From NCBI RefSeq assembly GCF_009914755.1, contig NC_060928.1: a stretch of 64,000 nucleotides of DNA, one strand, 5' to 3'. Below the pieces are notes generated by a model. It did not search any database. It saw only the letters and a list, made by a program, of their open reading frames with translations, and was not told the DNA's origin. Of this stretch, positions 2,299 through 64,000 are shown one piece after another. A program made the position numbers and the translations under genes. The stretch is from the human T2T-CHM13v2.0 reference genome, Homo sapiens. Numbering within the stretch: the stretch's first letter is position 1; the number at the start of each line of letters is the position of its first letter.

Positions 2299-2665
<367 letters not shown>

Positions 2666-6632: not shown

Positions 6633-6639
6633 AGAGTGG

Positions 6640-12017: not shown

Positions 12018-12347
<330 letters not shown>

Positions 12348-13044: not shown

Positions 13045-13235
13045 GTCCTGGTTTCCAATATTGGCTCAGTCACACAGAGTTCTGTCAATACCGTCATAGC
13101 CCTGAATTCTAAGGTTTTTTTTGTTGCTTTTATAGAAATTGTTGTCAGTATTAAATAAAATAAAAAATATAAGAAGGTCAGAGCATATTACATAGCGCCT
13201 TTGGCATACCAAGCATGCTAAACGTAGTAGCTATT
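13045..13235 (+). mobile_element. MIR fragment
   Basis: Degenerate MIR core and 3' motifs (TTAAATAAAATAA...GGCATA...TAGCTATTA). Confidence 0.5.
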
Positions 13236-13953
13236 AAGACCTGATGGATACTATATGCTGGATACAAATTATCACAAGATAGAATGGAGTAAAGAAAAAA
13301 GTAGGAGAAAAATAATTGACATAATTCAAGGTGGCTTGTTGAAAACTGAAGTCAACAGTAATAGTTATTAATTGGTAAGTCAATATGACCCAGAGAGGTG
13401 ATTCCCTATATAGGTAAATGTGCCCTCTGAGGTTTGTATTTCCTGATAAGCAGCATACGATTTTTATCTTTGCCAAACATACGTGTGCTATTATACATCG
13501 AGGTTTACTTTTCCAGTTTTAGAAAATAACATTTAAATCAGGGTTTAAATAGACAAATTGTGCATATTAGGGCTCAGTACTGTTATGGAGAAACATATAC
13601 GTATCATTCTTTCCCACAGAAAAATAGGGATTGATGAATTATGAATTTTCACAGACTAATTGAGACAGGCTTCTGTGCTAAATTTAATTAAATTCTGAAT
13701 ATAAAATATAATCCTTTTCCTTAAAGTCCTTTTGACCTTTTTTTTTCACTTATTTTTCATAAGCACCCTTCCCCCACCCCATCCCCCACACTAAATTGTA
13801 AGCTTTGAGATCATGGAGTTCATACAGGAGATCTTCAGAGGATAGGAAAAAGTGTAGTATGTAGATGTTCAACAAATATGAGGCCTATGCAGCAGTAGTT
13901 TAAATAAAAATATTTTATTTCCTTTAATATTCATTGTCAAACAATGAACAATT

Positions 13954-14272
13954 GGCCGGGTGTGGTGGCCCACGCCTATAATCCCAGCACTTTGGGAGGC
14001 CGAAGCTGGCGGATCACCTGAGGTAGGGAGTTCGAGACCAGCCTGACCCACATGGAGAAACCCTGTCTCTACTAAAAATACAAAATTAGCCGGGCCTGGT
14101 GGCGCATGCCTGTAATCTCAGCTACTCAGGAGGCTGAGGCAGGAGAATTGCTTGAACCCGGGAGGCTGAGGTTGCAGTGAGTCAAGATTGGCCATTGCAC
14201 TCCAGCCCAGGCAACAAAAGCAAAACTCCGTCTCAAACAAACAAACAAAAATGATAATAATAATGAAAAACA
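13954..14272 (+). mobile_element. AluSp-like
   Basis: CTGACCCACATGGAGAAACCC diagnostic; (AAAC)n tail; TSD AAACAATGAAC(A/C)ATT. Confidence 0.92.
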
Positions 14273-30657: not shown

Positions 30658-31264
<607 letters not shown>

Positions 31265-32269
31265 AAATACGAACATTTTAAAGAAAGAAAATGTAAAAGA
31301 AAAAAAAATGATGAGTAATAATCTAAAAAAAATATTGAAGTAATAAAGTTCGTAAAACAGCTCACAACAGCATCACAAAAGTTTTGTAATACACTAAAGG
31401 GCCTTTAGGACACTGCTTTAATCATGTACATTGGAATTAAGATGTCATTATGCATAAGTGACTAGAACAAAACCTTATTAAAACATTATGCCAACTGGCA
31501 TAATACTAAATGCTGTAGTTGTAACTTGCACAACATATATTCTTGCTTATCTTATTTTACTGTTATAGGCTTTGGAGGTTTCAAGATAAAGAGAAATTAA
31601 AAATCTTCCTGCAATAAGCAAGTTTTCTCCTTCTGAAAATGTAGCTTAGCAACTGACCACACCCCATTTAAAAAGAGCAAGGAAGTGAGAGAGAGAGAGA
31701 GAGACAGGACAACAAATAGAAAAACGGAAAAGTTTTTTGATATAAAATATAAAAAAGGGAAATATAAATGTACAATAAATATTTTATTACATGATGAATC
31801 TTAGTAGTATTCAGGTAAATTATGTTACATTTTATCCATCAGATTGGTAACATTTATTTACTTATTTTTTTGCTGAATAATTTATATAAAGTGTTATATC
31901 TGTATATGCGCAAAGTCTATTAACCCAATACAATTTCATTTCACATATTTAGGGCCGAAAATCATATGTACATACAAGAAAACATGTAGACTCATTGCCT
32001 GTATCTATTTTTATTAATAATAAGACTAATTTGGAAAAAATACAATGTCAATTAAAAAAAGAATAATTTCCTTCATTATAAAATAAATAGACCTAAGCAC
32101 TTCATACGTATCTCCATGCTTTATAAAATGTCCCATTGCTATCACAATTCATTATTCCCAGTTCCTCTCTTCAGAGTGCTTTTGGAAAGTAAAATGCCCA
32201 GAGAGATATGCTACTAATCACCAAGCAGAAGCAAGACAAAAAAAAAAAACATAAGAGCTGACTATTTAT

Positions 32270-32330
32270 CATAATAATAGGTGTAACTTACATTTACATA
32301 GTGCCTAATATGTGCTAGGCATTGTTCTAA

Positions 32331-32373
<43 letters not shown>

Positions 32374-32535
32374 CATTGAGTTCTCAACACAACCAGATAA
32401 GGTAAGTACTGTTTTTATCTCTATACTCTCCATTGATAAGAAAACAGAAGTCTAATATTTTGTTAAAGGTCACAGAGGTGGAAGATAGTGGAGTCAGGCT
32501 TACTAAATCTGGCAGCCATGCTCTCAACCACTGTT
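32270..32535 (-). mobile_element. MIR containing (TG)n at 32335-32370
   Basis: TGTGCTAGGCATTGTTCTAA...AAGGTCACAGAG; TG run. Confidence 0.65.
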
Positions 32536-34784
32536 TTCCTTCTTCTTAACTTGATTTGCTATTCATCTATTAATACTATTGTGGCATTTTTAACTGTGTT
32601 CTAAACTGAATAGCCTGAGTTTACATTTGTTCTAATTCCCAATGCGTATTGAAAACAACCTCTAATCAAAAGGCACGGATTCTCAAACATGAATAGTATA
32701 TGAACTATTAGTGCGTATGAACCAGTATAGGTTAAAAATAAGTGAAATGACCAAGAAATCTCCCAAGATTAACAATTATTTAATTGAATAATTTGTATTG
32801 TTTGTTTCAAAAGTATGTGACTATTGAAAAAAACACTTTACAATTTCTTATGCTTATAGAATGTTATTTTTAAAACAAAACTGATTCAATAAAAACTGGG
32901 AAAGACTGATGATGTTAACTGTTATGAGTTTTTTAAGACAACCTCTATTCACACTCTTTGCCATGTGATGTTTTTGCTCCTCTTAATTAAAGAAAGCTGT
33001 CCGTGTGACTTTTTCTGGCAGTGGAATATGGCAAAAGTGGCACAATGGTAGTCCTTAACGTAGGCCTCAAGATGACTCATATATTCCCCTCTTGTATCTT
33101 CGCCCTATGAAAAGAATCCATCTATTCTAACCTCGTGGATAGAAATAGAGAAACATGAAGCTGCACTAAATTGCTTCAGCCAAAAGACAGTTGATTTGCA
33201 AGTGTTTGAATTCCCAGCATCCAGTAGCCAATTCCCAAATGAAAGCTAAAATCAAATCCAAAGCTACCCTTAGCTAAAACACAGACTTGTAGAATCAGAA
33301 GATGAATAATTGTGTATTGTTTTATGCCTCCATATTTTGGGATGGGTAATCATGTAGCATGACCATGGCACTGTGTAATTAATTCAGAAATTGATGCCTA
33401 TACTTGGTGTGCTGTCATATAAATAAAACATAAAGTATGTGAATTCGTGTACTGGACTACAAGTGAGCAGAGGCTGAAAAAATGATAAAGAAATTGGACA
33501 GGATGGAAAACTGTCAAAGTATGTTATGGATTGATAACTTATACTGGCAGTAACTGGGAAGATATAAAGTTTACCCAATGAATATTACTTGTGATGATCT
33601 GATATTGGACCTAAGCCACCAATGTTTGGTTTAAGAGAAAGATTTAGACTGACGTCTGGCTCCATATTTATCTGTTTATGAATTTGATTCCAACAACACA
33701 AATGCAAAGAACAATACTTTAAACAAATATGTACAGGATACATTAATAATTTTAACAGTACTTTAGTAGAAAAATCTGACCCCCATCTTTAGTAAAATGA
33801 GAGTGTAGAATGCTTAAGTGGCAATTTTAATGAGGCTTCATTGAATAACCCTATGATGTTCTCACGTTGTATTTGACAACAGTTTACCATTCCAGTGCTG
33901 TTCATATCTGTATTAAATGGTTATCCATTGTATTTATTGTTAGATTCTGAAAGAAGACAATTATTTCTCATTATACATTTATTCCTGATCAACTGTGTAG
34001 TACTAATTGTTGTGAGTACGTAATTACAGGGATAGAATCATTTTAGACTGACAATAATGAACTCCTCTCTTTGGAACAGATCCTTTTGTGTCTGACAACT
34101 TTCAGTAGCGTGTGCCACCTGATGACTCGTGAGTCATACCACCCTTGTCCATTCAATCTACAAAACCTTTCATACTGAAACCTTGTTATCATTGAATTGT
34201 CAATTTGCTGGAACACATTCATTTAACAACAACAACAAAAAGAATTAAAGTGTTTCCATCACCATCACTGTGCTGTGATAGACTAATTGGTAGTAATAAT
34301 TATTCCCTCACCATGCCCTGTTTGTAAATGTTCAGTCACTTTCACTGAGGTTTAAGGCACATTTATGACACTTACTTTTCAACTTGACCATGTAACTAGC
34401 TTTGGACAAAGGGATGTTAGCAGAGATGGCATAAGCAGGGTCTTAAAAGTTGCTTTTAAGATTGTACTTTCTCTCTTATGTTTCTGCATTGCATTGATCA
34501 GCAGCTGCTCCTTCACCTTGGAACCCAGAGTTAACACAGGTGGAACAAATTTGCTTTAGCCTACCCACAGACATATAAGAATTATACGCTTAGTTTTGAA
34601 TGCCACTGAATTATTATGGCATTATTGTCTGTTACACACTAATTGCCTATTAATATAGTAGTAAGCCAGACAACCCAGAAAATAATTATGCTAATTTTTG
34701 TTGCTTGTCTTTAAGCTTGAACTGAAAATTTGTGAAAGTGTAGAGATCATTCCCCATCGTAAGTATAGAGATTCTTGATGGCGA

Positions 34785-35111
34785 CGAGATAGCCAGGTGG
34801 GAGGGGGTCCCTGGCAAAACTCCACCTGGCCTGCACACTGAGAATAAGCACTGGGGTGGAGCCACAGAAGTTCGCGTCGTTCGCAGCAGGGAGGAGCCTG
34901 GCCTGTCTTCTATCCCTGTGGAACCTGGGATTCAAGCTGTGAGGCTGGAAGTACTCTTAGCAGGAATTCTGGCTTTGTGGAGAGTCCCTGTTTCCTCCTT
35001 TTCACCCAATAAAACCTTGTCTTACCATTCAAATTGTCTGCGAGCCTGAATTTTCATGGCCGTGGGACAACAACCCTGTCTTTAGCTGAACTAAGGAAAA
35101 GTCCTGCAACA
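34785..35111 (+). mobile_element. ERV1 solo LTR, MER61-like
   Basis: GGGGTGGAGCCACAGAAGTTCGCG...CAATAAAACC...TAGCTGAACTAAGGAAAAGTCCTGCAACA; near-TSD GCGA/GCCA. Confidence 0.75.
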
Positions 35112-35249
35112 GCCAAGAGAGGGGTGTAGCTCTTTACAGGCATCATTGTAAGGGTTCCTGACTTAAGTTCACCCAAGCGTATTTTTGACTTTTTCAACCT
35201 GAAAAAGTTTAATAAACTTAGTGTTAGTGTTGGGGAGAAAGCCTTGTCC

Positions 35250-35298
35250 TGGATGGATGGATGGATGGATGGATGGATGGATGGATGGATGGATGAAT
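35250..35298. repeat. (GGAT)n
   Basis: Direct reading. Confidence 0.95.
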
Positions 35299-36034
35299 GA
35301 CACTAATGAACTAGTGTGGCTATTCATTTTTTTATTATTATTGCCAGAGGGCAATTTGAAGAAAAGATGAATTTGACTACAAAGTATACTGGGGGCATGA
35401 GACCAATACACTGGTAAGAAATATATTTACACCTTTTTACATGTTTTTGGTTAGGTTCCCCAAGAAGCGAATTTTTGGAGTCTATTCCCCTTGCCCTTGG
35501 ATTATCTTTATCAAATAAAGTAAACCTTTACAATATGTATTTATGTATTCTCCAGAAGTTTATTGAATGACCTGTGGTACCTTTTGAAACTTAGTCTTCT
35601 ATCATATTGTATATGTTCAACCTCTTAAACCTCTAAAACTCTTCACCTAGAGCACAAGAAGTATATCTTACTTTTGGAACTTAGTAGTGCTCAGGAAATG
35701 TGGGATGACTTAAGTTAAACAGAGTTAAATAATTGAATTGAAAATTTTGGAGCAGTTGCTATACCAGTATGGCCAGCAGTTGAGGACTGATATTGAATAG
35801 GAATGAAAAGGGGAATTGGAAAGTATTTTGATATATTATCATAGAGACAAAAAAAACTCAGTAAATGTTTTGAAAGTTGTAATACATAAGTTTAAAAACA
35901 AACAAAAATAATAGGAAAGTGGCACAGTCATTAGTCTGGCGACAATATGCCTAATTATTGAGGGAGTTGAGAGATAGGTCGTAGGGGCACCAAGTAGGAA
36001 TTTATAATAGCCGTTTAGATATAATGTAACTATT

Positions 36035-36329
36035 GGCCGGGGGCGGTGGTTCACACCTGTAATCCCAGCACTTTGGGATGCGGAGGTGGGCAGATCACCT
36101 GAGGTCAGGAGTTCGAGACCAGCCTGACCAACATGGTGAAACCCCGTCTCTACTACAAATACAAAAATTATCCAGGCCTGGTGGTGTGTCCCTGTAATCC
36201 CAACTACTTAAGAGGCTGAGGCAGGAGAATCACTTGAACTCAGGAGGCAGAAGTTGCACTGAGCCGAGATTGCGCCACTACACTCCAGCCTGAGAGACAA
36301 GGGCGAAACTTCATCTCAAAAAAAAAAAA
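36035..36329 (+). mobile_element. AluSx/Sz
   Basis: Full Alu with poly(A). Confidence 0.93.
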
Positions 36330-37639
36330 TAGAGATAACTATCAACAATATTCAAGATTTCTGCAGCAAGTCTACCACATTTAACCCAACTTAAGAAGAT
36401 TAATAAGAGGACTATATACACATTTTTGGAAATGATCCAAAGAAACCAATAACTAATAGTGCTACCCCTAGCAGCCAGTCACAGTGCAGGGAGTGGTGAT
36501 TACTATGTCTAGATATGAAGGGACAGAGCAAAGTTGGATTTGTAGGGACCCAAACCTAAATAGGGCAGCTATATGAGGAATAAGCTGTGGCCTCCAAGGG
36601 GCACAGTCAATCCTTAGCAACCTGACACTGTCCTCCCACCCTATGATCTCTGCAGGTAATTCCCATCTGCTAAGCAGAACAGAACCTACATTGAAATGAG
36701 ACCCACTGTCACAATGCATAGTGAACTAGGATTAAAGCAAGGTGGAAAACAGTGAGAGTGGTTCAGAAGGGGCAAAGGAAAAATGTCTAGCACATTCTCT
36801 AGAAACAAAATGTGCTTTAGATACAAGATACTAGGAAATACCCAGGAGGGAGTGGGAAATGTATCCATGTTGCTCTTTCCTCAACCAAATAACAGTTACT
36901 GAAGTCTGTGAGTTTCCCTTAAGCGAGTTTGTGCTTAAAAATAAACAAACAGCACCCACCACCAACAAATTTTTGGACTAGCATTTACTTGTCTCATGCC
37001 ATTCTACCCAGCCTGTTTGTGGAATCAGTGGTTCTGGCCATAAGATCTAGACCATAATTGGAAATTTGACAGACTAGTTTAGAAACTTTTTGTAACCATT
37101 TTCTCCATACCTCTGAAAACAGAAAGTCTTGCTGTAAGTTACTAATTTGAAATCTGACTTATTATTGTAAAGATTACATCAAAGACTTTTAATTGTCTCA
37201 GCAAAGAATTTGATATGTAAAAAAAAACTTGATAGAGACAATAGGGAAAAATATTACCTTTAAATTTATAACTAGTTTTAGGCTAAGTTCAAACTTGCAT
37301 CATTATCACATCCTTGCTTTAGACAGAATGAACATCCTGCAAGTAAATATGGTATTTTAACTGAGAGTCTGGGATTCTTCAGTTTGGGAAAAGTAGAAGC
37401 CTGAGGTCATTCGCTGTCTTCTAAGGACAGAAAAAAATTCCATTCTTTTCCAAGTTTATTAGCAGTTTAACTGAAAATCCACATTCTTTCTTTCTAACTA
37501 TATCATTTGTTGCTTCAGAGATGTGATTGATGTGTTGATTTAGAGATGTGCTTTAGAGATTGCTATATCTAGCAATTAAACTTCTACTAATTACATATAT
37601 CATTTTTGTTAAGCCAGTAAACTCTCAAAGTATCAAAGA

Positions 37640-37880
37640 GCAGTATGGTAGCATGGTTAGTGGTAAAGAATATGGAGCTGGGTGGATCAGGGTATCAATT
37701 CCTCTTTTCCACTCACCAGTTGATTAACCTACAATAGTTTACTTAAGCAGTCTTATCTCAGTTCTTCATCCATAAAAATGAAGGAAATGATAGTGATGGC
37801 TCCATGACAGATTAAATAAAACATGCCAAATGCTTAATACAGTATCTAACTAATAGATTTTACTCAATAAATATGAACTG
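37640..37880 (+). mobile_element. MIR
   Basis: CAGTATGGTAGCATGGTTAG...TCTCAGTTCTTCATCCATAAAAATG...CTCAATAAATAT. Confidence 0.7.
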
Positions 37881-38228
37881 AGTGGCTAAAATATGATATG
37901 GGACACCTCTTATACTTTCATAACTTTTGTTGTGTAAAATAAATACTTTCCCACTGAGAAATGTTGATGTGAACATATGTATGGGTATACTGAACCCTGT
38001 ATTTTGTTACTTACACATCACCTATCAAAATATTGTGACCAACCACATGTTTTTGCTGCTAGTTTCTGACCCCTAAATTAGTAATTAGTTATTATTTTTA
38101 AAAAGCTGTACTATATTTTACATACCATAATATCCACCTATTTTAAGTGTATGCAGTCTGATAACTCTTAAGATTTTACAATCTTGCAACCACGGTCATT
38201 TCATGTTATAATATCTCTGGCATTCTAG

Positions 38229-38938
<710 letters not shown>

Positions 38939-41324
38939 AGCGAGTTGTTTTTTTTTTTTTTTCTATGAATTTTATGTAAATTGAATAACCTTATAATCAC
39001 CTAATGATTTTGGCAGTGGTTGTATTCATACACTTCAAACCCATGAGGTTTTTAACCAGTATTGATCAAGTTGTGGATCCACTGAAAAAAACCCTTTTAA
39101 TTGTAGCCAGTATTCAGTTTTTTCTTTTTAAAATTTTTTTCACAATACATTCTCCTATTTTTTTCATGCATGCGGATTTCAATAGTAATCTAAGCATATG
39201 AGGAGAGTTTATTTCAGACCTTTACATCTAACTTTACAGTCTAGCTGTTAAATTTTTGGTTAATATGCTTTGCCTCGTGAACTGGAATACAAACTTGAAC
39301 TAATAAAACTTTTTATTTTCTCTGTTGATTTTGAGCCAAGATCACCACTTTTAGTTGGCCACACTCCCATCTCCCTATCACAGACTCTAGTCTAGGAGAG
39401 CTGTAATTTTGGCTGACCATGCCAAGGAGGTACATGAGAGGAAGGCAAACTCTCAATATTTTCCTCAAAGCTGTAGCCTTTTTTTTAAAAAAAAAAAAAC
39501 AACAGCAAATGCTTCTCAATTTATCTGACTTTGATCCAATCCAAGGACACTAAACTCGTTGCTTTCTGGCAGTTATATGCAATTTTATAATTGTTTTATT
39601 CAGAGGGATATTGCTTTACTTATTCATGCTACCATTTTTAGAATTCCAGTCTGTTGGAGGAGGTGTTTCCTTAGGTGGTGGTTACAGATTGTGGAAAAGT
39701 CTTTATAATATTAGTCCTTTGAAAAGTTGCCTTCTCAATTTTTCTCTGGTCCAGGAATGTTTGACCATTTGCACTTATTTCATGAATTTTGCTGTTCAAT
39801 GCAAGAATAAAGGGATGTGTTTAAAATATATGAAACAATGGGGCATGTTTTTATGTGTCTTTTTCTGTTTAAAAGTGTTTATAAGACTATTTGAAGGTTT
39901 GCTATGTCTATTACCACCTACAGTTTTCAAGTCTTGTTCACTTAAAAAAAAAATCTTCTAATAAGCATTTTGCCACTTTTCTTGGCTTGCTGTTTTATAG
40001 TATTTTCACGTGCTTTAGGGGAATTAATATAAATAAACAAAATGAAGCTAACAAATGAAGCTACAATTGCATCCTGAGTAAAATAAATTACATTTTTTTC
40101 ATCATCCTGAATTACAGAAATGATAAGAATTTTACAGATATTTTTCTTTTTTGCTTTTTATATTAAACTCCTGTCACCTGAGATAAACTGAATATATCTG
40201 ATTGTACTTTAATCAATTTTAATTTCTAAGAAAAAGTTTAGATTCAGGAAATGGAAAGAGAAATAGAGGAAGAAACTAGAAGAGAGAAAAATGGACAGAA
40301 CCTCATGTATGATAAGGAGAGTCATGTAGTTAATGCTATGGCAGTCAAAAGCCTTTATGAACACATATGGATGAAAAGGTAAGAGAAGACATAAAAAGAA
40401 GGCTGAAGGTTTTAAAGGAATATGGAGCATGTTTTGCAGGTTATTGAAGACTTCTGGTGACAACAACCTTAAAGTTGCTCATACACTTAATCTACATTGA
40501 AAGTGTTTATTATATCCTGAAAACCAAAAAACATGACGTGCGATATGTGCGCATCGTACAACCTTTCCCTCCTGCCTTTGAATTGACTTATTTTTTCATA
40601 TATATAGATGAGATAATATATGTCTTTATTGTGGGAACCTCTTTATTATAAAAAATTTCACAAACAAAGCAGAGATTAGTCCAACAAAACTTAATAAATC
40701 CATTACACAACTTTAAGTGGTTTAACTCAGGGCCAGTCTCATTTTATCTGCATTCCCATCTACTTCTTCTCCCTCTTCCTGGATTAGTTTGAGACAAAGC
40801 CAAGGGAGAAGAAACTTTATGTTTTATTCATTATTATTTAACTATGTATGTTTTAATATGACTTTTATATAATTTAATTTTAATTATTAAGTCTAAAAAT
40901 TTTACATTATCTTAGTATTATATGATATCCAGCAGTTGTTGTATTTATGTGGACACTTTACCAAGTCCTTTAAAAATAATTCACAAAGCCATCCCTCCAT
41001 GACTTAGAGGAGTCAAAAAGATAATGTAGAGGCTTTGTGATAACATATTTAATATATTGTTATTGATGGTAAATTCAATTGCTTATAGAAGTTTCTATTA
41101 TCACCGGTTCAATTTACATTCTAGATTTATATGTTCCCCATTTAAATGAAAAATCAAACATCACAAAATTTTAAGGGATTATTTTTCTGTATCATCCAAG
41201 CTCCACCAAAATCTATAAATGTAGACCTTACTTGGCATGTTTACTAAATTATTTTATATTTACATTAAGCAATGATTTTTATGCTTATCATGCACTATGA
41301 GTTGCATGCATTCTTTGGCTTCCT

Positions 41325-41631
41325 TGTGTTTTGCCAAACACTCCATTTGACCAGTGAGCCAAAGTGCACTGTAACTGATGAACTGCAAATGTATTCAATA
41401 TATTTCTGGTAAAATCTGAGTCAGCAAGAAGAGCCTACTGGAGTGCAAAAATTAGCATGACATAATGCCGAGTACATTCTCTCACAAGTTAAAGATATGG
41501 ATAACAAAAGTTAATCCATGATTTCCTAGAATTAATAAATTAGATAAACCTATTTTAGCTTTAATAAGTTTGCAACACAAAGATCATTTACTTGAAGTAA
41601 CACATAATTAAGTTCTTGGAAATTATAATTT
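41325..41631 (+). repeat. inverted repeat, left arm (307 bp, apparently unique sequence)
   Basis: Checked block by block as the exact reverse complement of 42610-42916. Confidence 0.98.
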
Positions 41632-42609
41632 ACTGCAGTCTTTCTGCATGGAACTCTGCTGTAATGGGGAAAGTTTATATATATGTGAGTACATATTCAT
41701 GTCAGTGTGTGTGTATCTATGTGTGTGTATATAGCCCCTATCAATTAAATAAACAAGATGCAGCAAGATGTCAGCCACTTTTACATAATTTTAGCAAAGC
41801 TCTAAAGGAGGGAACACAAGTTATCTTTTCTTTAAATAATAATTTCTGTGAATAATCAAGGCTTACTAATTGCTTTTTCAAATTCTCCAGCTCTGATTTT
41901 TACTTCACATGTTCAATATATATTTTTCTTTTGTACTTCTAAAATATTCTCCTGCTGGCTACTTACTAATTTCTTTGATAGTCTTTGATTTCATCAACTT
42001 ATTTTATTCTATAAAAGTAACATTCCAAAGTCACTTTGTGCAATTTGTAAAAAAAGAGATTTAAGGTTATGATTAAAAGTGGAAAATTCAAATTCTTTAA
42101 AATAATTTTGAATAAAATCAGCTAGGTTTTTAAAACAACATTCATAAAAGTCTTGATCCTATCATTTGAATTTTTAAAAAGCCATGTTTATTGAAATGAC
42201 TTTGCTTTAAATCCAGTAAAAGAAGATTCAGCTGGCATTTATGATAAAAATTACTGTATTTGGAAATGTATTTCTTGGCTTTTACAATAATCAGAAGTCA
42301 CTTTTTAAATGTCATATTACACACATACAGATACACACACACATACACACGTACTTGTTAGCTCTGGAGGACTAAAAATGTGTTTACATGAGATTCTTAA
42401 AGAAAAAAAAAACTAGTTCATGTTTTAAATTAAATCCTTTTAGGCAATTAGATTTTTAGCCAGTAGCAGTAAAGAGCAGGTTTGTAATTCTAAAATTAAT
42501 GTTAAAAAAAATGATATATTACTTGAGGAACTACATTATGTTTTTGGCTCAGAGAACATACTTTAAAAACCTGCCAACATCAAGAATATGTGTCCTGGAA
42601 AAATACAGG

Positions 42610-42916
42610 AAATTATAATTTCCAAGAACTTAATTATGTGTTACTTCAAGTAAATGATCTTTGTGTTGCAAACTTATTAAAGCTAAAATAGGTTTATCTA
42701 ATTTATTAATTCTAGGAAATCATGGATTAACTTTTGTTATCCATATCTTTAACTTGTGAGAGAATGTACTCGGCATTATGTCATGCTAATTTTTGCACTC
42801 CAGTAGGCTCTTCTTGCTGACTCAGATTTTACCAGAAATATATTGAATACATTTGCAGTTCATCAGTTACAGTGCACTTTGGCTCACTGGTCAAATGGAG
42901 TGTTTGGCAAAACACA
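42610..42916 (-). repeat. inverted repeat, right arm (derived copy flanked by a 12-bp direct repeat)
   Basis: Exact reverse complement of 41325-41631; GGAAAAATACAG at 42597-42608 and 42920-42931. Confidence 0.98.
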
Positions 42917-45437
42917 GCAGGAAAAATACAGATATTTCATTATCTCTTATGTTTTCTTTTCTTTTCATTTTATCGCTATGGTTTAGATTCTGAGCATGAT
43001 TGATTTCAAAAAAAAGCTTGAGAAATGTCAAATGTATCATATCATTATGAAAATAATGAGAGCACATCTAAAATTCTCATACTAATTTTTAAAAGTTATG
43101 CATAGTATATACATATAATGGGCATATGGAATACTATTGCACATAATGAAATCTAAAACTGCAACAAATCCAACTTTCTAAAATTCAGTTCCTTTTTAAA
43201 AATATAATACAAAATAAAAAAGACATCTCCAAGTCATCTTATAATTATGGCGGCCTTGTGATTTGTCATCCAAACTGAACTCTTAAGAGTGAAAGAGGGC
43301 ATTATTAATCATTACTCTGAAAAAAGAAGTTTAACCTGGGCCTGTTCCAGTGCCCATAATTATGACTTTTTCCACAAGCTTCTTGTGATTTTAGGTACAG
43401 TTATTAATTCTTTCATTCAGGAGCTTAGTGCTGTAAGTGCATATAACACTGCTAGAGTGGCTCAATGCATTGATGGGCCAAACTGAGTTTAAGAGAATAA
43501 TTTATATTCACAACCGGGCACTATGAGAACAAGTATTTATATGGGCTTGCTACTTATTGCATCTTGATGTCTGAATTATTTCCTTCAAGTATGAAACTTT
43601 TTTATTTCTCTAGATGCCTGAGAATTCCAACAGGTGGTCTAATTAGGTGAATAGAATGAGGATAACTGGACATATGAGTTTCCTCCATTCATAAGGTAGG
43701 AAATGGCATCTGTCACTTAAGACTTAAGGGTTCCCACTTCCCACTCATGCAATATTATTCATTGACTTTAAAACATGAAGCTGATTCTCATCTAGCTTTG
43801 TTTGTTCACTTCTTTAGAATGGAGACTCTTCCAGAAGCTTCACTACTATCACTGAGAGTCAAGAAATTCTAATTCCAAGAACTTGTGATTAATATTCATG
43901 AGAGAAATTTGTAAGTTAAACAACTTCATATTACCTATCTCTGCTGCCTTCTTATGGCCATGTTTGGTTAGAAAGGCGCCGGAAGCTAAATAATTCGTGT
44001 GTGCAAAGACACTCTTTGTCTTGTGTGTTTTGTATTCAAGACACATAAACACTACATATAGTATTTGGGGTATATAGTTAAATTGTCTATGGGTTTTTGA
44101 GAGACAGAAAATGTTATTGGAAGGCTATATTGAGTCAGAAACATCAAAGGTAGTCAATAATTTAGAAATGCATTTATTGATTAGATACTCGATGATAATG
44201 CCCAAAGTTTATTGTCATTGTGACATTTTTCCTGCCACAAATCAAAGGGTTCAGGTGTTTCCAGAGGGAGGTCAGTAGAATAACAGTGCCCTGTTAGCAC
44301 AGTTTTGATAGTACCTAAATACCCCACTTGACAACTGAAGTCCAACCTGAAACAATAAAAGCTTATCCTAATAAGTTCTCTAGTGCTGCTAAAGTGGTTG
44401 ATTTGCCAGTGACTATTAACCTCACTGTTATCCCAGGGTTGAAGGCTACTGAACTCTTGGCAACCTATGTGCCAGGAGGCTGCTGCTCTGTATTTTATCC
44501 TCATCTTGAGGACCGACCTAAGGCTCCAGCATCAAATTCAAGCATTTGCTTATCTTCAAAGTCTCATTGTACAAACAAAAGTTATGGATGGCACTTTGCA
44601 AAGCAGCACTTCTATATTTTTATTTTTGGAAGGCTACTCAGATATAAAAACCCTCTGTGTTTTTGAAAAGTTTCTATTGGCTCTTTCCATGGAATATATT
44701 GCTGCAAAATTATCCTATAAAAGCAAGGTACAATTCAGTACTTAGAATTATATCAAACATCAAGATCCAATCTCCAATAAGAAAAATGTCTTAAATTTTT
44801 ATTTTACAGTATTAAATAATGACTCATTATATAAATTTCTATAATTATTTGTTTGCAAATAGAAAAGAATTGTTGAATGCTAGTTTAAAAAATTTACAAT
44901 AGCCCTCTGGGAGAATATTTAAATGGAGAATATTTTATTGTGAAATACTTTATAAGAGGATTTTTACCCATTTTCCCATGTAGTTGATTACTTTATTACA
45001 ACACTTATTCTATTTAATTTTTTAAATAATTTAACTATGCATTTCAAGAATACATTAAGTATTAGACATGAGAAACCTTTTTTCATGCATACTTCAGTAT
45101 GAGTGTATGGAAGTGTATGTGTATTTGAGAAATACACTGATTGGTTGAAGAACTGATTGGTTGAAGGAGAAAGAGGGCAACCTTATGTTGTAGTGCTAAA
45201 ATAAGCATTTATCACTCTGAGATGGGCTTTTGCACTCTTTTGAGTTCAGCTAAAATAAAATTCTGTGTTACCAAGAAGGAAAGGTGTAGTGAATAAATTT
45301 CTTTTCAACAGGAAGTGGGATAAGAGCAAGAACACAGAGCTTGACGTTGGACAATCATGAATTCAATCCTAGCTCAGCAACTACATGTCCTTTCATGCTA
45401 GACAACTTATTTACACTCTAAGAATTCATTCACCTCC

Positions 45438-54703: not shown

Positions 54704-55117
<414 letters not shown>

Positions 55118-56492
55118 TAAGTATTCTATCCTATAAATTTCTGTTCTTCACAATTGATATGACCCTGGAAATTTCAAATGCTTTGCTAATGAAATAATAT
55201 ACATCATAATCCTTACACATCCTAATGGATATTGTTACTGGTGTCAACACCCACCATTCCAGAACCTGAGAACATTTAACATCCCAGGGCATCTTTCAGG
55301 AAGATGAATCCATGTTTATCTCAAAAAATAAGAGTTTACTGACAAATTTTCCACTGTTTCCTAGGGGTCAGGCACTGTCTCATCCAAACCTGCATCAGTG
55401 AGGCAAATTTCACAACGACTCCATAAGTACACAAACACAATACTTTCTGAAGTGTCTTCATAATTTGTTTCCACCATCATAATATCACTTACATTCAATC
55501 AATAAAGTAGAAGACTTAAAACGTTTCTAATCTTTCATTTATACTGATGGTCTGTGATTGCCTTCCACATCACATTTGCAGTCGTCCAAAGAGTTCATGT
55601 CTCTAAATAGGTCCTTGATACGCTCCCGGCAAACATCAACATTTTTAAATTACATAAACTTTATGTAACATATAGAGAAAACATACCTTTTAAAAAGCAT
55701 TTCCCCTGTATTTACTTGCTATCAAGAACTCACGTGCATACGATCAAAAATTTATTGAGATTGTAGCTAAGATATACTCAGTCTTAATTCCCTCTTGCTC
55801 AGCTTCCTCGTAATGCATATATAAAAAAGAAAATTAAGAAAACTCTGTTCCAAAATGTTTGGAAAATTAAGAAAAGAAGAGAAAACAACAAATCAATATT
55901 TTAACAGTTTAAACAAAATATCCATAATTCTAATTTGGAGATACTAATTTTTCTAGATGTATGTTTTCACAAAATTATGTTAATAACAGTAGCATAATAC
56001 AAACTTTAGAAGAGCTCTAGAGAAATTTGTGTACCTCATAACAATCCCTACAAAGTGAATTATGATGAAGATCAAGGAAAACATGGACTTTACAATACCC
56101 TCGTCTTCACAAGAACTCAAACAAATAGAGAGTATAGTTTTTAATAGGAAAATCTAAGGTATTATGCATATAATGGGACTTTTGGATCAAGTTCTCAAGT
56201 GTTTCTGAGTACTGTTTTCTTTATTTTCAAGTATACTCTTACACTCCTGAGTCTAGGGAGTCTTTCAAGTCAGGCTCAAGGGGAACCAGGCTGAGAAGCA
56301 GGAGAAGACAGCTCAATTCAGTGCCAGGAATAGATGGGAAGAGAGCTTCCACTCCCTGGCCTGATATGATTGGGACACAGAGTATGAGAAAAGAATGGTT
56401 GGACAGTAGGCTATGGCATGTAAGAATGGTGAGGCATAAGTTTAAGTGATAAGGGTGACTAGGGACCATGTTATAAAATAATGGCACTTGAG

Positions 56493-56877
56493 TGTTACAG
56501 GGTGAATTGTGCCTCTCTAAAATTTATATGTTGAAATATTAACCCTCAGCACCTCAAAATGTGAATCCATTTAGAAACAGGGCTTTAAAAGAGGTAATTT
56601 AGGTAAAAAGAGGTATTATGAATGGGCCCTAATCTGATATAATTGGCATCCATAAGAAAAGGATATTAGGACACGAAATAACCAGAGGAAAAGCCATGTG
56701 GGGACACAGAAAGAAGAATAACCATTTGCAAGCCAAAGAATGAGGGTCCAGAAGAAACTACCTGCTGAGAACTTAATCTTGGATTTCCAGTCTCCAGAAC
56801 CATGAGAATATAAACTTTCTTGTTTAAGTGACCCAGTTTGTGTTATTTTGTTATGGCAGAACCAGCAAACTATTGCA
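56493..56877 (+). mobile_element. MLT1B-like solo LTR
   Basis: GAATTGTG...ATATGTTGAA...GGGCCCTAATC...TTTGTTATGGCAG. Confidence 0.8.
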
Positions 56878-56999
56878 TCTATTAACAGAGATCTGTTTTT
56901 CCCCTGTGAATTAAAGAAACCACTGGTAGTTAAATAGGGAAGTGACTCCAATTTACTAAGAAATTAATTTTGCAAGACTCGATATATTTCATAACTTGA

Positions 57000-58045
<1,046 letters not shown>

Positions 58046-58320
58046 CAATCTTTCAGCCCTGGGCCCCTGACACAATTGCTTAAAATCCATAGTTTGCCTA
58101 TACTTAATTTTATGAATGGTTTTATGTATCTGAGTTCAGGAGCTTTTATTTCTATTTTTTCCTTACTCTTTTTGGTCTATAATTTCAACATATTGATATA
58201 ATTTTATACAATCTTGATTTAAAATACAAATTACTTTCTATCCTTTTAAACTTTGTGTGCCAAATTTTGGCAAGGGTGATTTGTTTTCATTCAAAAAGTT
58301 GATAGACATATCAACTAGTA

Positions 58321-58441
58321 CAGGATAATCGCTTGAACCCGGGAGGCAGAGGTTGCAGTGAGCAGAGATCGTGCCCTTGCATGCCAGCCTGGGTGACAAG
58401 AGAGAAACTCCATCTCAAAAAAAAAAAAAAAGAAAGAAAGA
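58321..58441 (+). mobile_element. Alu right-arm 3' fragment
   Basis: CAGGATAATCGCTTGAACCCGGG...CATCTC followed by poly(A). Confidence 0.9.
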
Positions 58442-59809
58442 AATTTCCCATCAACCACAGAACTACATCCAACTGTCAACATGGCATACAATTTCCTTGA
58501 TGGTATAATTTCAGTTTTGAATTACACCAAGCTTCTCATATGTTAAAGACACCAGAACGCAAGAATTTCAAAAGAAATATTATTTTCAATAATAAGTAGT
58601 TTTATTTTTCCAAAAAAAACCCTCCACATGTGTTATTATAAGAATGATCTATTCCTTACTGGACTTTTTATGTTAACTCTATGGTTTAAAATTTTTTAAA
58701 CAGTTTAATTACATATAGAGATGGAAAAGTTTTGACCATTTAGACCATTCAATCATTTCAAACCAGCCCTTTAATCCCCAAATTGCCACCAGATTTTCTT
58801 ATAATTTTCTGCCTTAAATAGTTTCTATTCTCATTTCCACAGAGCTTGATGTTCCCACTCTCTTTCATGCTTTTTTTTGTCATCAAATTCTTGAAAAGAT
58901 TTTTTTTTCACTTTGTGTAATAACTTGTCCATCTCCACCACCATTTTTACCTGGACTTACGGCATCTTGTCATCTAACATCTGCTCATCATCAAGAACTC
59001 TGTGCTGACATTTTAGTTATACAGCAACCCTTTCTTATTTAAGGTTTTTTTTCCATGTTTGCACATGCATACAATAAACCACGTAAGCTGACATAATTGT
59101 ATCTATAATATTATAATACAATTAACTACTTATGAATATGTCCTCCACATTAAATGCTTAAGGAAAGGATTTGTGATCCTTTTTTCCCTTTTAGAACCAA
59201 CATGCGGCAGTGTCTTCCATATAGCCAATGTTTACTATTATTTGCAGAATTAGTTAACATGTATTTCACTTACAAATGACAGTAGATGGATAGATAGATA
59301 ATAATATTAATGTTAAATGTTTATATATTGTCTCTTTACGTTCCTAAAAAATAGGGAAGAACAATTTCAAATAAAAATATAAAACTCCAGGGTTTGTAAT
59401 ATTTATAATTGGTTTCTTACTGTTTTAGAAGCAATGATATTTGTCTATCTGTAGGCTATTGATGAATTAATAATTCCTTTGAAGGTGCATTTTAGTTGCT
59501 TGGGTTCTGTGGACCTAATACAAAATTTAGAATTGGAATGAAGGATACGTGGCAGGAGAGCCAAAGGTAGAGCTGCATGTTCAAATAGTGCCTGTAGAAA
59601 TTAATCTAAATCCAGAGTATAAAAGGAGCTCTTAGTCTTTTAGCTACAAATGTTCACATGTACCATAACTGTTTTACTTTGAATTTAAGTATATAAATGG
59701 TCCTCTTCACTAATTTAAGATATAATTATAATTGCGTCATTTAAATTCAGTTTTTCAAATGTAATATTCTCATACTTTACTGTCAGAAAATCTGGTACAT
59801 CTCTCTTAA

Positions 59810-60130
<321 letters not shown>

Positions 60131-60149
60131 TGAGATCCTCTGCAGCTTA

Positions 60150-61260
60150 GTAATTTGTTCACGTATTCAGCAAATATTTGTAGAGTGCCTACTATATATC
60201 AGGCATGCACAAGGCATTCAGGATACATTAGTGAATACAGCAGTCAAACTCCCTGACCTCAGGGATCTCATATTTTTGTAAGGGGGAGCATTATTTACAT
60301 TATTTACATTTGTAAGTGGAAGCATTATTATGTTAATATCAATTAACATAATTAAGAAGTAAATGAAATTGTACTTGAGAAAATAACAAGTGACATGTAA
60401 AAAAGGAGAAAAAAAATGTACAGTAGAACAAACAGGATTGTGAATGTGTGCATGTGGGAGGGTTCTGGAGAAAGCAGCAAGCTACAGTATTAAGTAGAGT
60501 GATTCGGGTAATCTTAAAAGAGAAGATGCCACCTCCTCCCAAACTTAAGGAAGGCAATACAGTTAGCAAGGAAATAGCTGTTGTAGACCAGTCCAGGTAC
60601 TGAAAAGAGCTTGAACAATGCCCTAAGACAGAAGCATACCTGATCTTTGCAACGAACACAAAGAAGTCCAGTGTCTCAGAGAATGATAAGAAGAACAAGG
60701 GTGTTGAGTGTTTAAGGCCTTAGAAGTAAGGGGTTCGAGCCAGGGGAAAACACACATGCCTTTGAAAGAATTTTGGCTATTACTCTGAGTTGAAAAGGGA
60801 GGCGCAGAAAATTTATTAGCAGATGTGTTACTTAATTTAACTTAAATTTTGAATGAGCAGTGGCTGTTTTTAAAGCTTAGATTGTAGTTCTGCTCGGAGA
60901 TAACCCAGGCAAGAAATATTGGTTGCTTTCGGCCAGAGTGGGACAGTTCAGTAGTTCCAAGTGTCCTGATACTAAATATATTGTAGGAACAGCCAGTAGG
61001 ATTTCATGACAGATTAGAATATTTGACTTGATAAAAGAGTAAAAATTCACCCCCAGGAATTTGACCTAAGCAAGTTAAAAAATGCTATCAGCAACAACAG
61101 AGGTGGGGAAAGTAGTAAGTAAAGCATGTATGGAAGATTAGGAAATCAGTTTAGGATGTATTGAGTTACATGCTTCTTAGACATCCTGTAGGCAGCTTGA
61201 TATACGAGTTGAGAGTTTAGGCAGTGGAGTTCACAGGAGTCCATCTCAGTTTCCTAACAA
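60150..61260 (-). mobile_element. L2a-like fragment
   Basis: ATTCAGCAAATATTTG..GAGTGCCTACTA..CAGGCA 3' end and further L2 motifs. Confidence 0.7.
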
Positions 61261-61274
61261 AAGATAGAGAAGAG

Positions 61275-61616
<342 letters not shown>

Positions 61617-62219
61617 TTAATAATTTTGTCACATAAAATTAATACTATGTAATTTTTTTTGAATTATCTTACGTTATGGTGCAACTGAAATCTATGATTG
61701 GATGAAACAAGTTGATTGCAATTAGGTAAAGAATTTTCATTTCGTTATAAACTTAGAATTAGTTGAATTTTCAGTAAAATAGCATACTCACCACTAGAAT
61801 ATAAATTGAAAGAAAAACGTAAGTATTCATCTTTGGTAAAGAAAAGCCAATAGGTTAGCAAAAGCTTAGCACATAAGTTAGTAAGTAATAAAAAAATAAA
61901 GAGTTTTCCAGAGTGTGGTAGTAGTTTACATTCCTTCCATTATTATATGAGAATCTCACTTGTTTTACATTAAATTTTCTTTAGTATTTACAATTGCAGT
62001 CATTCTAATGGTTGTTAAATGGTATTCCATTATAGTTGTAATTTGCAGATCCTGATAAATAAGCATGTTAATTATTATTCATCTTCTTATTTGACATTGG
62101 TACATCTCCTCCAATAAACTCTGTGTTCAATTCTGTTGCTCATGTTTTAAAAATTAAATTTTTATATTCTTATTTTTCAACTGTAAGACTGTTTTCTCAA
62201 TAGAAGTAATTTTATATGT

Positions 62220-62485
62220 AAGATCAAAGCACCAGCAGATTCTGTGTCTGGTGAAGACCCATATTCTGGTTCATGGATGACTCCTTCACTCTATTTTCAC
62301 ATAGTGGAAGGGGCAAGGCAGTCCTCTGAGGCCTCTTTTATAAATGCAGTAATCTTACCATGAAGGTTCCACCTACACAACCTAATCATCCATCTACCAA
62401 TAGCTTCACCTTCTAATGGCATCATATTGATAATTAGGTTGCAAAATAAAACTATAGGAATGACATACACATTCAGACCTTTGTA
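62220..62485 (-). mobile_element. MLT1A/MST LTR fragment within an old L1
   Basis: AAGATCAAAGCACCAGCAGATTCTGTGTCTGGTGAAG...CACATTCAGACC. Confidence 0.7.
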
Positions 62486-62654
62486 CCATCCTTCGAGGTC
62501 AAGTTCTAATTTCTTAATAAATGTTATTATTTGGCATTGGTTATAGATAGTTTTCTCTGCAAGGATTTTCATGCATCTTTTTTTTTTCTTTCATTAACAG
62601 GAGTCCTGTGTAGACTAGGAAATGGAGGAACCGTATCTTAAAGAATTATCACTA

Positions 62655-62962
<308 letters not shown>

Positions 62963-64000
62963 GAATTATAACTCTACAACTCAATAGCAAAAAGACAAAT
63001 AACCTTTTATAAATGGGCAAATGACCTGCATAGACATTTCTCCAGAGAAGACAAAAATGGTCATCAGGCATATGAGAAGACGCTCAACCTTACTAGAAAA
63101 TGCAAATCAAAATCAGGGAAATGCAAATCAAAACTACCAGAGGCCAGGCATGGTGGCTCATGCCTGTAATCCCTGCACTTTGAGAAGCTGAGGCAGGAGG
63201 GTCGCTTGAGTACCGGAGTTCAAGACTAGCCTGGGCAACTTAAGGAGACCCCATCTCTACAAAACAATGACAACAACAACAACAACACAATATTACTGCA
63301 CACTCTTTGAGAGTCTGAGGCAGGAGTATTGCTTAAGCCCAGGAGTACAAGACCAGCAATATTGCAGGTAACATAGTGAAATCCCATCTCTACAAACAAA
63401 CAAAAAACACAATGGGATATTACCTCACACCTTTTAGGATGGCTATTATTAAAAAGGCAAGAGATAACAAATATTGAGGGTGTGGAAAAAAGGTAGCTCC
63501 CTTGTACACTGCTGGTGGAAATGATGGTTGGTGCAGTCATTGTGGAAAACAGTATGGAAGTTTCTAAAGAAAATACAAATAGAGTTATCATATGACCTAG
63601 CAATTCTTCTTCTGCATATATACACAAAGGAAATGATATTATGAACTTGTAAAGACTCTCATATTCATTGTAGCATTATTCACAATAGCCAAGATATGGA
63701 AACAACCTACATGTGCGTTAAATTTGATGATATTGATAGATACATAGATAATTATGCAGCCTTAAAAGAGGAGAGCTTGCCATTTGTAACAACATAGGTA
63801 AAACTAGAAGACACTATGCTAAGAGAAATAAGTTTGACAGAAAAAGACTGACTGATCTCACTTGTATGTGGAATAAAAAAATGGATATATAGAAAGAGTA
63901 GAAAGGTAGTTACCAAGGAAGATGTATGCAGCAAAATGTACAAAGTTGCAATTCTGTCAGGTGAATAAGCCTGGAGATCTACTAGAGAGTATGAGGAATA
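62963..64000 (+). mobile_element. L1MA/MB 3' end, runs off the window
   Basis: AAATGGGCAAATGACCTGCATAGACATTTCTCC...CACAATAGCCAAGATATGGAAACAACC. Confidence 0.85.
63142..63405 (+). mobile_element. two tandem FLAM/AluJ left monomers
   Basis: Both units end CCCATCTCTACAAA; (AAC)n linker between them. Confidence 0.8.

What the first reader, a model, noticed from the sequence alone, without database searches (positions are those of the whole stretch)
41325..42916. Perfect 307-bp inverted repeat of apparently unique DNA flanking a 978-bp spacer: candidate invertible segment
Seen: 41325-41631 is the exact reverse complement of 42610-42916, with no mismatch in any block, including a CpG. I recognise no transposon in the arms, which sit in the largest repeat-poor stretch of the window. 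Known: identical inverted repeats can mediate recurrent inversion by non-allelic homologous recombination, can form hairpins, and form long dsRNA if transcribed. Inference: the duplication is very recent or homogenised by gene conversion, and the spacer may flip between orientations.
Basis: partly seen in the sequence, partly recalled or inferred. Interest (0 to 1): 0.85.

Follow-up and report, generated by a model that had tools for sequence, protein, structure and literature searches.

The report
Young inverted copy pasted 1 kb away
A 307-base stretch of unique human DNA on chromosome 4 was copied backwards and pasted about 1 kb downstream, leaving a perfect inverted repeat that looks like the scar of a DNA-copying error, not a proven genetic switch.

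Summary
Window 41325-41631 is the exact reverse complement of 42610-42916 (307 of 307), with a 978-bp spacer. The whole 3.1-Gb assembly holds only these two copies.

Arm 2 reads as a secondary insert. It is flanked by a 12-nt direct repeat, GGAAAAATACAG, at 42597-42608 and 42920-42931. Both junctions show short homology to the flanks of arm 1, plus 1 and 3 odd bases. Arm 1 has no such flanking repeat, and neither does the whole unit.

I read this as a local, opposite-strand, templated insertion of 311 bp plus 12 re-copied bases. A template switch or repair synthesis most likely made it. L1 retrotransposition is unlikely: there is no poly(A), no suitably placed signal, and the source lies only 1 kb away.

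Zero differences in 307 bp only bounds the age to under about 9 My, so gene conversion is not needed.

The direct orientation of the 12-mer means this assembly carries the original spacer orientation. Two inversion catalogues list nothing at this locus. Flipping by recombination is possible but not shown.

This is a known class of mutation, and I saw no sign of function. I could not compare ape or other human haplotypes.

The parts
41325..41631 (+). Arm 1, the inferred source (original) copy, 307 bp of unique sequence
   Evidence: Exact reverse complement of 42610-42916. It is one of only 2 copies in the genome. Its best flanking direct repeat is 6 nt, which 20% of random segments reach.
41620..41631 (.). 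12-nt perfect palindrome AAATTATAATTT at the inner end of the copied tract; a possible stall or fold-back point
   Evidence: Only 0.34% of positions in the window lie within 1 nt of an edge of a perfect palindrome of 12 nt or more.
41632..42596 (+). Intervening DNA between the source and the insertion site, inferred to be ancestral and still in its original orientation
   Evidence: Unique in the genome apart from TG/CA-like low-complexity stretches. The orientation is inferred from the direct 12-nt duplication around arm 2.
42597..42608 (+). Left copy of the 12-nt target-site duplication GGAAAAATACAG. Its last 3 nt (CAG) match the source flank, and 8 of its 12 nt match overall.
   Evidence: Random 12-mer pairs from the window reach 8 of 12 matches with P = 0.0062.
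42609..42609 (+). Single G at the inner junction that matches neither source (T expected) nor target; it extends the palindrome to 16 nt (42608-42623)
   Evidence: Its origin (misincorporation or snap-back synthesis) is inference.
42610..42916 (-). Arm 2, the inferred inserted inverted copy, 307 bp
42917..42919 (+). Three junction bases, GCA, at the outer junction. An alternative reading is a 2-nt GC insertion followed by 5 nt (AGGAA) that match the source flank 41320-41324.
   Evidence: Gapped BLAST alignment and offset alignment.
42920..42931 (+). Right copy of the 12-nt target-site duplication GGAAAAATACAG
   Evidence: The 12-mer occurs only at these 2 places in the 64-kb window and at 3 places in 284 kb.

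Best explanation
The inverted repeat is the footprint of one young structural mutation. The ancestral order was: left flank, arm 1, about 965 bp, one copy of GGAAAAATACAG, right flank. A growing DNA 3' end that had just copied this 12-mer left its template. It annealed through imperfect homology (8 of 12 nt, the last 3 exact) to the opposite strand about 1 kb away, next to a 12-nt palindrome, and copied about 307-316 nt in the reverse direction. It then returned to its own template at a GGAA match, 12 nt behind the point it had left. The result is a 311-bp inverted insert (42609-42919) flanked by a 12-bp direct duplication. In the four-point notation for template switches the order is 3-2-4-1, with point 4 before point 1. 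Shown: the two identical copies, their uniqueness in the genome, the 12-nt duplication around arm 2 only, and the junction homologies and odd bases. Inferred: which arm is the source, that the event was DNA-templated (a replication-fork switch, MMBIR-like, or repair synthesis at a break), its age (most likely under about 9 My), and that it has no function. A side effect is a 307-bp perfect inverted repeat that could recombine and flip the spacer. This assembly carries the unflipped state.
For: The arms are identical at 307 of 307 positions, and the arm has 2 matches in the 3.1-Gb genome, both here. A 12-nt direct repeat sits around arm 2, 1 nt and 3 nt from its edges. Only 31 of 20,000 random 307-bp segments of the window (0.155%) have a flank repeat of 12 nt or more, and that null includes real transposon duplications and microsatellites. 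Arm 1 reaches only 6 nt and the whole unit only 4 nt. The 12-mer occurs twice in the window and 3 times in 284 kb. Homology continues past both arm ends. At the inner junction it is CAG after one mismatch, and 8 of 12 overall (P = 0.0062). At the outer junction it is AGGAA after a 2-nt insertion. The inner end of the tract coincides with a 12-nt perfect palindrome. Passages read in print fit this picture. Two to five nt of microhomology, inverted insertion depending on the strand invaded, and stimulation by palindromes are described for FoSTeS (Gu et al. 2008, PMC2583991). Template-switch events with point 4 before point 1 look like a single large insertion and create perfect inverted repeats (Walker et al. 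2021, PMC7954356). Local opposite-strand non-tandem duplications made up 21 of 166 supported local rearrangements in human long reads (Frith and Khan 2018, PMC5829575). The source lies under 1 kb from the target, which a local copying error predicts and a genome-wide insertion process does not (inference).
Against: I could examine no outgroup or second human haplotype, so the empty site is inferred, not seen. The copied tract (307-316 nt) is longer than the maximum of 128 nt in Walker et al.'s gold-standard set. A 12-bp flanking duplication containing an A run is also what L1 endonuclease leaves. One G at 42609 and the GCA at 42917-42919 are not explained by simple copying. The junction homologies are short, and the significance of the 8-of-12 match and of the palindrome coincidence is only about 0.01 each. 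The sequence alone cannot separate a replication-fork switch from repair synthesis at a staggered break.
Confidence: 0.7

Rival explanations
1. L1 ORF2p-mediated insertion (target-primed reverse transcription) of a cDNA made from a local antisense transcript. This would be a class-1 templated sequence insertion.
For: The 12-bp target-site duplication lies in the usual L1 range, and the target has an A5 run (T5 on the other strand). Class 1 TSIPs are defined by a duplication of at least 5 bp together with a poly(A) tract, a polyadenylation signal and a TTTT/A site (PMC5110952, passages).
Against: There is no poly(A): the longest A run in the insert is 4 (top strand) or 5 (bottom strand). AATAAA/ATTAAA occurs only at position 68 of 311 (top sense) and 213 of 311 (bottom sense), not 10-30 nt from a 3' end. 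The nick site implied by the duplication is not TTTT/A (read). No gene is annotated in the window (hub note). Insertion within 1 kb of the source is very improbable for a process that inserts genome-wide (inference).
Confidence: 0.07
2. A single event inverted the spacer and duplicated arm 1 at the far end. This could be staggered breaks or a template switch that copied spacer plus arm, like non-homologous inversions with breakpoint duplications. On this reading the spacer in this assembly is the derived orientation.
For: The anatomy fits: arm, then segment, then inverted arm. Such alleles are known. HsInv0260 is a 1831-bp inversion with a 980-bp duplication, and 18 of 45 inversions carry indels attributed to one complex FoSTeS/MMBIR event (PMC6748972; main-text passage, supplementary file 10).
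Against: The ancestor would have needed a pre-existing 12-nt inverted repeat sitting 1 nt and 3 nt from the two breakpoints. The 12-mer is rare: 3 copies on the + strand and none on the other strand in 284 kb. The new junctions this model implies (41631|41632 and 42916|42917) show no adjacent microhomology (read).
Confidence: 0.08
3. One reading: an older inverted repeat kept identical by gene conversion, acting as a recurrently flipping NAHR segment.
For: Perfect identity over 307 bp. This length lies at the lower edge of the 300-500 bp meiotic homology requirement and above the 134-232 bp range where mitotic recombination falls off, and close spacing lowers the requirement (PMC2583991).
Against: Identity needs no conversion, because the probability of zero differences is 0.72 at 1 My and 0.12 at 6.5 My. 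The intact direct 12-nt duplication around arm 2 shows the original orientation here. There is no call at the locus in the 41-genome T2T callset or among the 45 validated inversions. The two shortest recombination-type repeats in that set (654 and 755 bp, 99.7-99.9%) are scored as of unique, not recurrent, origin.
Confidence: 0.08
4. An assembly artefact, or a mutation private to the sequenced cell line.
For: Only one assembly could be examined.
Against: The structure spans 1.6 kb, far below long-read length (recalled, not tested). A 12-nt flanking duplication with junction microhomology is the signature of a biological insertion, not of a mis-join.
Confidence: 0.04

Closest known systems
Localized non-tandem duplication, opposite strand (Frith and Khan 2018, PMC5829575)
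   Same: A nearby segment is copied and inserted in the opposite orientation while the source stays intact. It is a recurring pattern: 21 of 166 supported local rearrangements.
   Different: That survey compares reads with a reference and apes. Here only the derived allele is seen. I saw no statement there about flanking target duplications.
Four-point short-range template-switch events (Walker et al. 2021, PMC7954356)
   Same: A reverse-complement copy of nearby sequence creates a perfect inverted repeat. Events with point 4 before point 1 appear as one large insertion.
   Different: The scale differs. Their 2-to-3 tracts have a median of 12 nt and a maximum of 128 nt, and the template lies within tens to hundreds of nt. 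Here the tract is 307-316 nt and the jump is about 970 nt.
FoSTeS / MMBIR rearrangements (Gu, Zhang and Lupski 2008, PMC2583991)
   Same: Microhomology of 2-5 nt at the joins, orientation set by the strand invaded, small insertions at junctions, and possible stimulation by palindromes.
   Different: The described cases are mostly kb-to-Mb, disease-associated copy-number changes. This is a 0.3-kb event in a gene desert.
Class 1 templated sequence insertion polymorphisms (Onozawa and Aplan 2016, PMC5110952)
   Same: An insert of non-repeat genomic sequence flanked by a target-site duplication of at least 5 bp.
   Different: No poly(A), no polyadenylation signal near the 3' end, no TTTT/A site, and the source is 1 kb away on the same chromosome rather than distant.
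Small human inversions flanked by near-identical repeats of unique sequence: HsInv0061 and HsInv0040 (Giner-Delgado et al. 2019, PMC6748972)
   Same: Inverted repeats of mainly unique sequence at 99.7-99.9% identity flanking 1.7-3.6 kb.
   Different: Their repeats are 654-756 bp and two orientations are documented. Here the arms are 307 bp and only one orientation has been seen.

Membership tests
Local opposite-strand templated insertion (template-switch / non-tandem inverted duplication) | A second copy in reverse complement close to an intact source | tested here: met
   307 of 307 identity, 978 bp apart, both copies intact; only 2 copies in the genome.
Local opposite-strand templated insertion (template-switch / non-tandem inverted duplication) | Microhomology or small untemplated insertions at both joins | tested here: met
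   Inner junction: CAG, and 8 of 12 nt overall, plus 1 odd base. Outer junction: GGAA/AGGAA plus 2-3 odd bases. The homologies are short and only modestly significant.
Local opposite-strand templated insertion (template-switch / non-tandem inverted duplication) | The return point lies upstream of the departure point, giving a short direct duplication around the insert | tested here: met
   12-nt direct repeat at 42597-42608 and 42920-42931.
Local opposite-strand templated insertion (template-switch / non-tandem inverted duplication) | An ancestral empty site in outgroups or other haplotypes | not testable with these tools
   The genome has no relatives held. A scan of prokaryotic genome contigs for stray human DNA carrying the arm found 0 matches.
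L1-mediated retrocopy / class 1 TSIP | Target-site duplication of at least 5 bp | tested here: met
   12 bp.
L1-mediated retrocopy / class 1 TSIP | A poly(A) tract of 10-40 A at the 3' end of the insert | tested here: not met
   The longest A run is 4 or 5, and none lies at an end.
L1-mediated retrocopy / class 1 TSIP | A polyadenylation signal 10-30 nt upstream of the tail | tested here: not met
   The only AATAAA/ATTAAA hits are at position 68 of 311 and 213 of 311.
L1-mediated retrocopy / class 1 TSIP | Insertion at a 5'-TTTT/A-3' site | tested here: not met
   The site implied by the 12-nt duplication has CC before the nick and AGG after it on the bottom strand. A T5 run is present but is followed by CC (read).
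NAHR-mediated polymorphic inversion | Highly identical inverted repeats at both ends of the segment | tested here: met
   100% identity over 307 bp. This is shorter than the 654 bp-24.2 kb range of validated cases.
NAHR-mediated polymorphic inversion | Both orientations present among haplotypes | not testable with these tools
   Only one assembly is held. Published callsets checked show no call here. This assembly has the original orientation by the logic of the 12-nt duplication.
Transposon with long terminal inverted repeats / foldback element | A target-site duplication flanking the whole unit, and multiple copies in the genome | tested here: not met
   The best flank repeat around 41325-42916 is 4 nt. 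The 2.8-kb region is single-copy apart from low-complexity hits.
Described RNA family (hairpin RNA, miRNA) | A match to an Rfam model | tested here: not met
   0 matches at E up to 1 in 40000-44500.

The most novel reading that the evidence does not exclude
The template-switch insertion created, from unique DNA, a 307-bp perfect inverted repeat that is now a live recombination substrate. If both spacer orientations segregate in people, this would be the shortest-armed unique-sequence NAHR inversion documented. It would also be a clean example of one copying error manufacturing the substrate for a recurrent second rearrangement. A further possibility is a long hairpin transcript, if the locus is transcribed in the germline.
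Probability: 0.06. Interest if true: 0.45.

Novelty: new member of a known kind. Interest (0 to 1): 0.2.

Why it matters
This is mainly a clean teaching example. All the junction details of a mid-sized (about 0.3 kb, 1-kb jump) inverted templated insertion are still intact, so the source, the target, the 12-nt re-copied stretch and the orientation history can be read from one haplotype. It also shows that a perfect inverted repeat in a finished assembly need not be functional, conversion-maintained or invertible. At this length, perfect identity is compatible with several million years of neutral drift. The practical value is small: a candidate marker and a possible weak NAHR substrate in a gene desert.

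Tried and rejected
- **Whole unit as a transposon with 307-bp terminal inverted repeats.** Rejected: the best flanking repeat is 4 nt, and the unit is single-copy.
- **Arm 1 as the insert.** Rejected: its best flank repeat is 6 nt, which 20% of random segments reach.
- **Arms as a known interspersed repeat.** Rejected: there are 2 genomic matches only. The 2.8-kb query gave 21 matches, of which 18 were short low-complexity hits outside the arms. Caveat: the tool says common words are skipped and counts are lower bounds.
- **RNA family.** None found.
- **Coding potential.** Only 3 ATG ORFs of 51-63 aa overlap 41200-43000, and none lies within an arm.
- **Second, older nested inverted duplication.** The TG-rich and CA-rich stretches in the spacer match generic low-complexity sequence elsewhere, so I set this aside.
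- **Second human haplotype from stray human DNA in prokaryotic assemblies.** 0 matches.
- **Wider survey of the chromosome.** I obtained 220 kb.
- **Literature gaps.** One search term was too long and I re-sent it shorter. I did not read part 2 of supplementary file 10 of PMC6748972, so I saw 42 of its 45 rows; all 3 chr4 rows were among those seen. I read only part 8 of 14 of the PMC10150506 table, so 21 of its 31 'chr4' occurrences were not read. A search for coordinates beginning 3008-3013 returned only three '3010' strings, and the two shown were genotype codes.

Full report
**The observation**

Window 41325-41631 is the exact reverse complement of 42610-42916, 307 of 307 positions. The spacer is 978 bp. 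Each arm has 31.6% G+C and one CpG. The repeat finder and BLAST find the same pair. The window is G000:C4:30070001-30134000, so the arms lie at chr4:30,111,325-30,111,631 and 30,112,610-30,112,916.

Identity ends sharply. None of the first 8 positions outside the outer edges is complementary, and the first position inside the inner edges is a mismatch. The other 14 inverted pairs of 80 nt or more within 10 kb in the window are 73-87% alike, and most fall in intervals that the hub lists as masked repeats. In 284,000 contiguous bases, made of the window plus 220 kb fetched downstream, this is the only inverted pair of 100 bp or more at 95% or better.

**Not a repeat family**

The arm has exactly two matches in the 3,117,275,501-base assembly, both at this locus. 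A 2801-nt query (40700-43500) gave 21 matches. These were itself, the two arm cross-matches, and 18 short hits (35-81 nt, 75-94%) to TG/CA-like low-complexity stretches outside the arms. The tool warns that very common words are skipped and that counts are lower bounds. The hub's masking list has no stretch of 100 bp or more between 38986 and 45600. No Rfam family matches 40000-44500 at E up to 1. Only three ATG ORFs of 51-63 aa overlap 41200-43000, and none lies inside an arm.

**Anatomy that gives the repeat a polarity**

Arm 2 is flanked by a 12-nt direct repeat, GGAAAAATACAG, at 42597-42608 and 42920-42931. The left copy is 1 nt from the inner edge of arm 2 and the right copy is 3 nt from its outer edge.

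- Only 31 of 20,000 random 307-bp segments of the window (0.155%) have a flank repeat of 12 nt or more. That null still contains real transposon duplications and microsatellites.
- Arm 1 reaches only 6 nt, which 20% of random segments do.
- The whole unit reaches only 4 nt.
- The 12-mer occurs twice in the window and three times in 284 kb.

Arm 2 therefore looks like a 311-bp insert (42609-42919) with a 12-bp target duplication, and arm 1 looks like the source.

Homology between the source flanks and the target continues a little beyond the perfect arms.

- At the inner junction there is one mismatch (G at 42609 where the source predicts T), then CAG. Overall 8 of the 12 target bases match the source flank (P = 0.0062 for random 12-mer pairs).
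- At the outer junction a gapped alignment gives a 2-nt GC insertion followed by AGGAA, which matches 41320-41324.

The inner end of the copied tract is a 12-nt perfect palindrome, AAATTATAATTT (41620-41631). With the junction G it becomes a 16-nt palindrome at 42608-42623. Only 0.34% of window positions lie within 1 nt of the edge of a perfect palindrome of 12 nt or more.

**Most likely mechanism (inference from this anatomy)**

A growing 3' end that had just copied the 12-mer left its template. It annealed by imperfect homology to the opposite strand about 970 nt away and copied about 307-316 nt in the reverse direction. It then came back at a GGAA match, 12 nt behind its departure point, and so re-copied the 12-mer. 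In four-point notation the order along the sequence is 3-2-4-1.

Passages I read support each element.

- FoSTeS joins carry 2-5 nt of microhomology, the inserted piece is direct or inverted depending on the strand invaded, and palindromes may stimulate the switch (PMC2583991).
[quoted passage not shown] Their gold-standard tracts have a median of 12 nt and a maximum of 128 nt, so this event is larger (PMC7954356).
- Local non-tandem duplications inserted on the opposite strand are a recurring class in human long reads, 21 of 166 supported rearrangements (PMC5829575).

The extra G could be a misincorporation, or one base templated by snap-back of the palindromic 3' end. I cannot tell which. 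I also cannot separate a fork-based switch from repair synthesis at a staggered break.

**Rivals**

1. *L1-mediated retro-insertion.* The duplication length fits, and an A5 run is present. But the insert has no poly(A): the longest A run is 4 or 5. The only AATAAA/ATTAAA motifs lie at 68 of 311 and 213 of 311. The implied nick site is not TTTT/A (class 1 criteria from PMC5110952). A genome-wide insertion process would also rarely land within 1 kb of its source (inference).
2. *One event that inverted the spacer and duplicated arm 1.* HsInv0260 is an example of this type, a 1831-bp inversion with a 980-bp duplication. This would require the ancestor to carry a 12-nt inverted repeat sitting 1 and 3 nt from the two breakpoints. 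The junctions it makes new show no adjacent microhomology.
3. *An old repeat homogenised by conversion.* This is not needed, as the age estimate below shows.
4. *Artefact or cell-line change.* This is unlikely given a junction signature typical of a biological insertion, but it was not tested.

**Age**

I used a recalled human rate of about 0.5e-9 per bp per year, with ten times that rate for the two CpG bases. Zero differences in 307 bp then has probability 0.72 at 1 My and 0.12 at 6.5 My. The median age is about 2.1 My and the 95% bound about 9.2 My. With a flat prior, the probability of an age under 1 My is about 0.28. The event could be polymorphic, human-specific and fixed, or slightly older.

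**Does the spacer flip?**

The two copies of the 12-mer are in direct orientation on either side of arm 2. An odd number of arm-to-arm inversions would place one copy, reverse-complemented, next to arm 1. This assembly therefore has the original orientation (inference).

- *Porubsky et al. 2023 (PMC10150506).* In the 41-genome callset the chr4 rows I read lie at 4.01, 33.07, 49.2, 49.6, 72.26, 72.70, 91.25, 160.25, 191.30 and 192.18 Mb. Coordinates above 190.2 Mb, which I recall as the GRCh38 length of chr4, together with the 193,574,945-base contig, show that these are T2T coordinates. Calls as small as 520-574 bp are listed. No coordinate beginning 3008-3013 occurs in the tables. The three '3010' strings include two seen as genotype codes, and the third was not shown. 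I read part 8 of 14, so 21 of the 31 'chr4' occurrences were not read.
- *Giner-Delgado et al. 2019 (PMC6748972).* I saw 42 of the 45 rows of supplementary file 10. The three chr4 rows are at 39.9, 89.07 and 189.1 Mb in hg18. The recombination-type inversions have repeats of 654 bp to 24.2 kb. The two shortest (654/656 bp and 755/756 bp of mostly unique sequence, 99.7-99.9%) are scored as of unique origin.
- *Homology requirement.* Human meiotic NAHR is said to need about 300-500 bp of identity, mitotic recombination falls off between 232 and 134 bp, and proximity relaxes the demand.

Flipping is thus mechanistically possible but unobserved.

**Hairpin and dsRNA**

As single-stranded DNA, a 1500-nt piece (41371-42870) folds with the arms paired along their full length, at -400.8 kcal/mol. 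This is trivial for a perfect repeat, and the loop is 978 nt. Extrusion from duplex DNA with so long a spacer is not expected (established knowledge, recalled). No gene is annotated in the window (hub note). I have no expression data.

**Verdict**

The best reading is an ordinary member of a known class of structural mutation, a local inverted templated insertion. Its junction details are unusually legible. The invertible-segment idea is a possible consequence, not a finding.

The decisive evidence could not be obtained here. It consists of an empty site in apes or other humans, and spacer orientation across haplotypes. The bioRxiv and PDF supplements of the inversion papers were not readable and might list small variants at this locus.

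Noticed in passing
window 41700-41729 and 42318-42347: A TG-rich and a CA-rich imperfect microsatellite inside the spacer form a 30-nt, 87% inverted pair 588 bp apart. TRF calls an (AC)n-like array at 42319-42350. Similar low-complexity matches occur elsewhere in the window and genome, so this is probably generic and not a second nested duplication.
   Followed up: partly
window 42608-42623: The insertion junction created a 16-nt perfect palindrome, GGAAATTATAATTTCC. The source has only the central 12 nt. The extra junction G is what a one-base snap-back extension of the palindromic 3' end would add. This is speculative.
   Followed up: partly
window 2415-14188, 30734-38960 and 54711-63264: The other 14 inverted pairs of 80 nt or more within 10 kb are 73-87% alike. 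Most fall in intervals the hub lists as masked, so they are probably ordinary interspersed-repeat pairs.
   Followed up: no
literature, not in the window (PMC6748972, supplementary file 10): HsInv0061 and HsInv0040 are 1.7-3.6-kb inversions flanked by 654-756-bp repeats of mostly unique sequence at 99.7-99.9%. They are filed as NAHR but scored as of unique origin. Their repeats might have arisen by the same kind of inverted templated copying as here. I did not examine their sequences.
   Followed up: no
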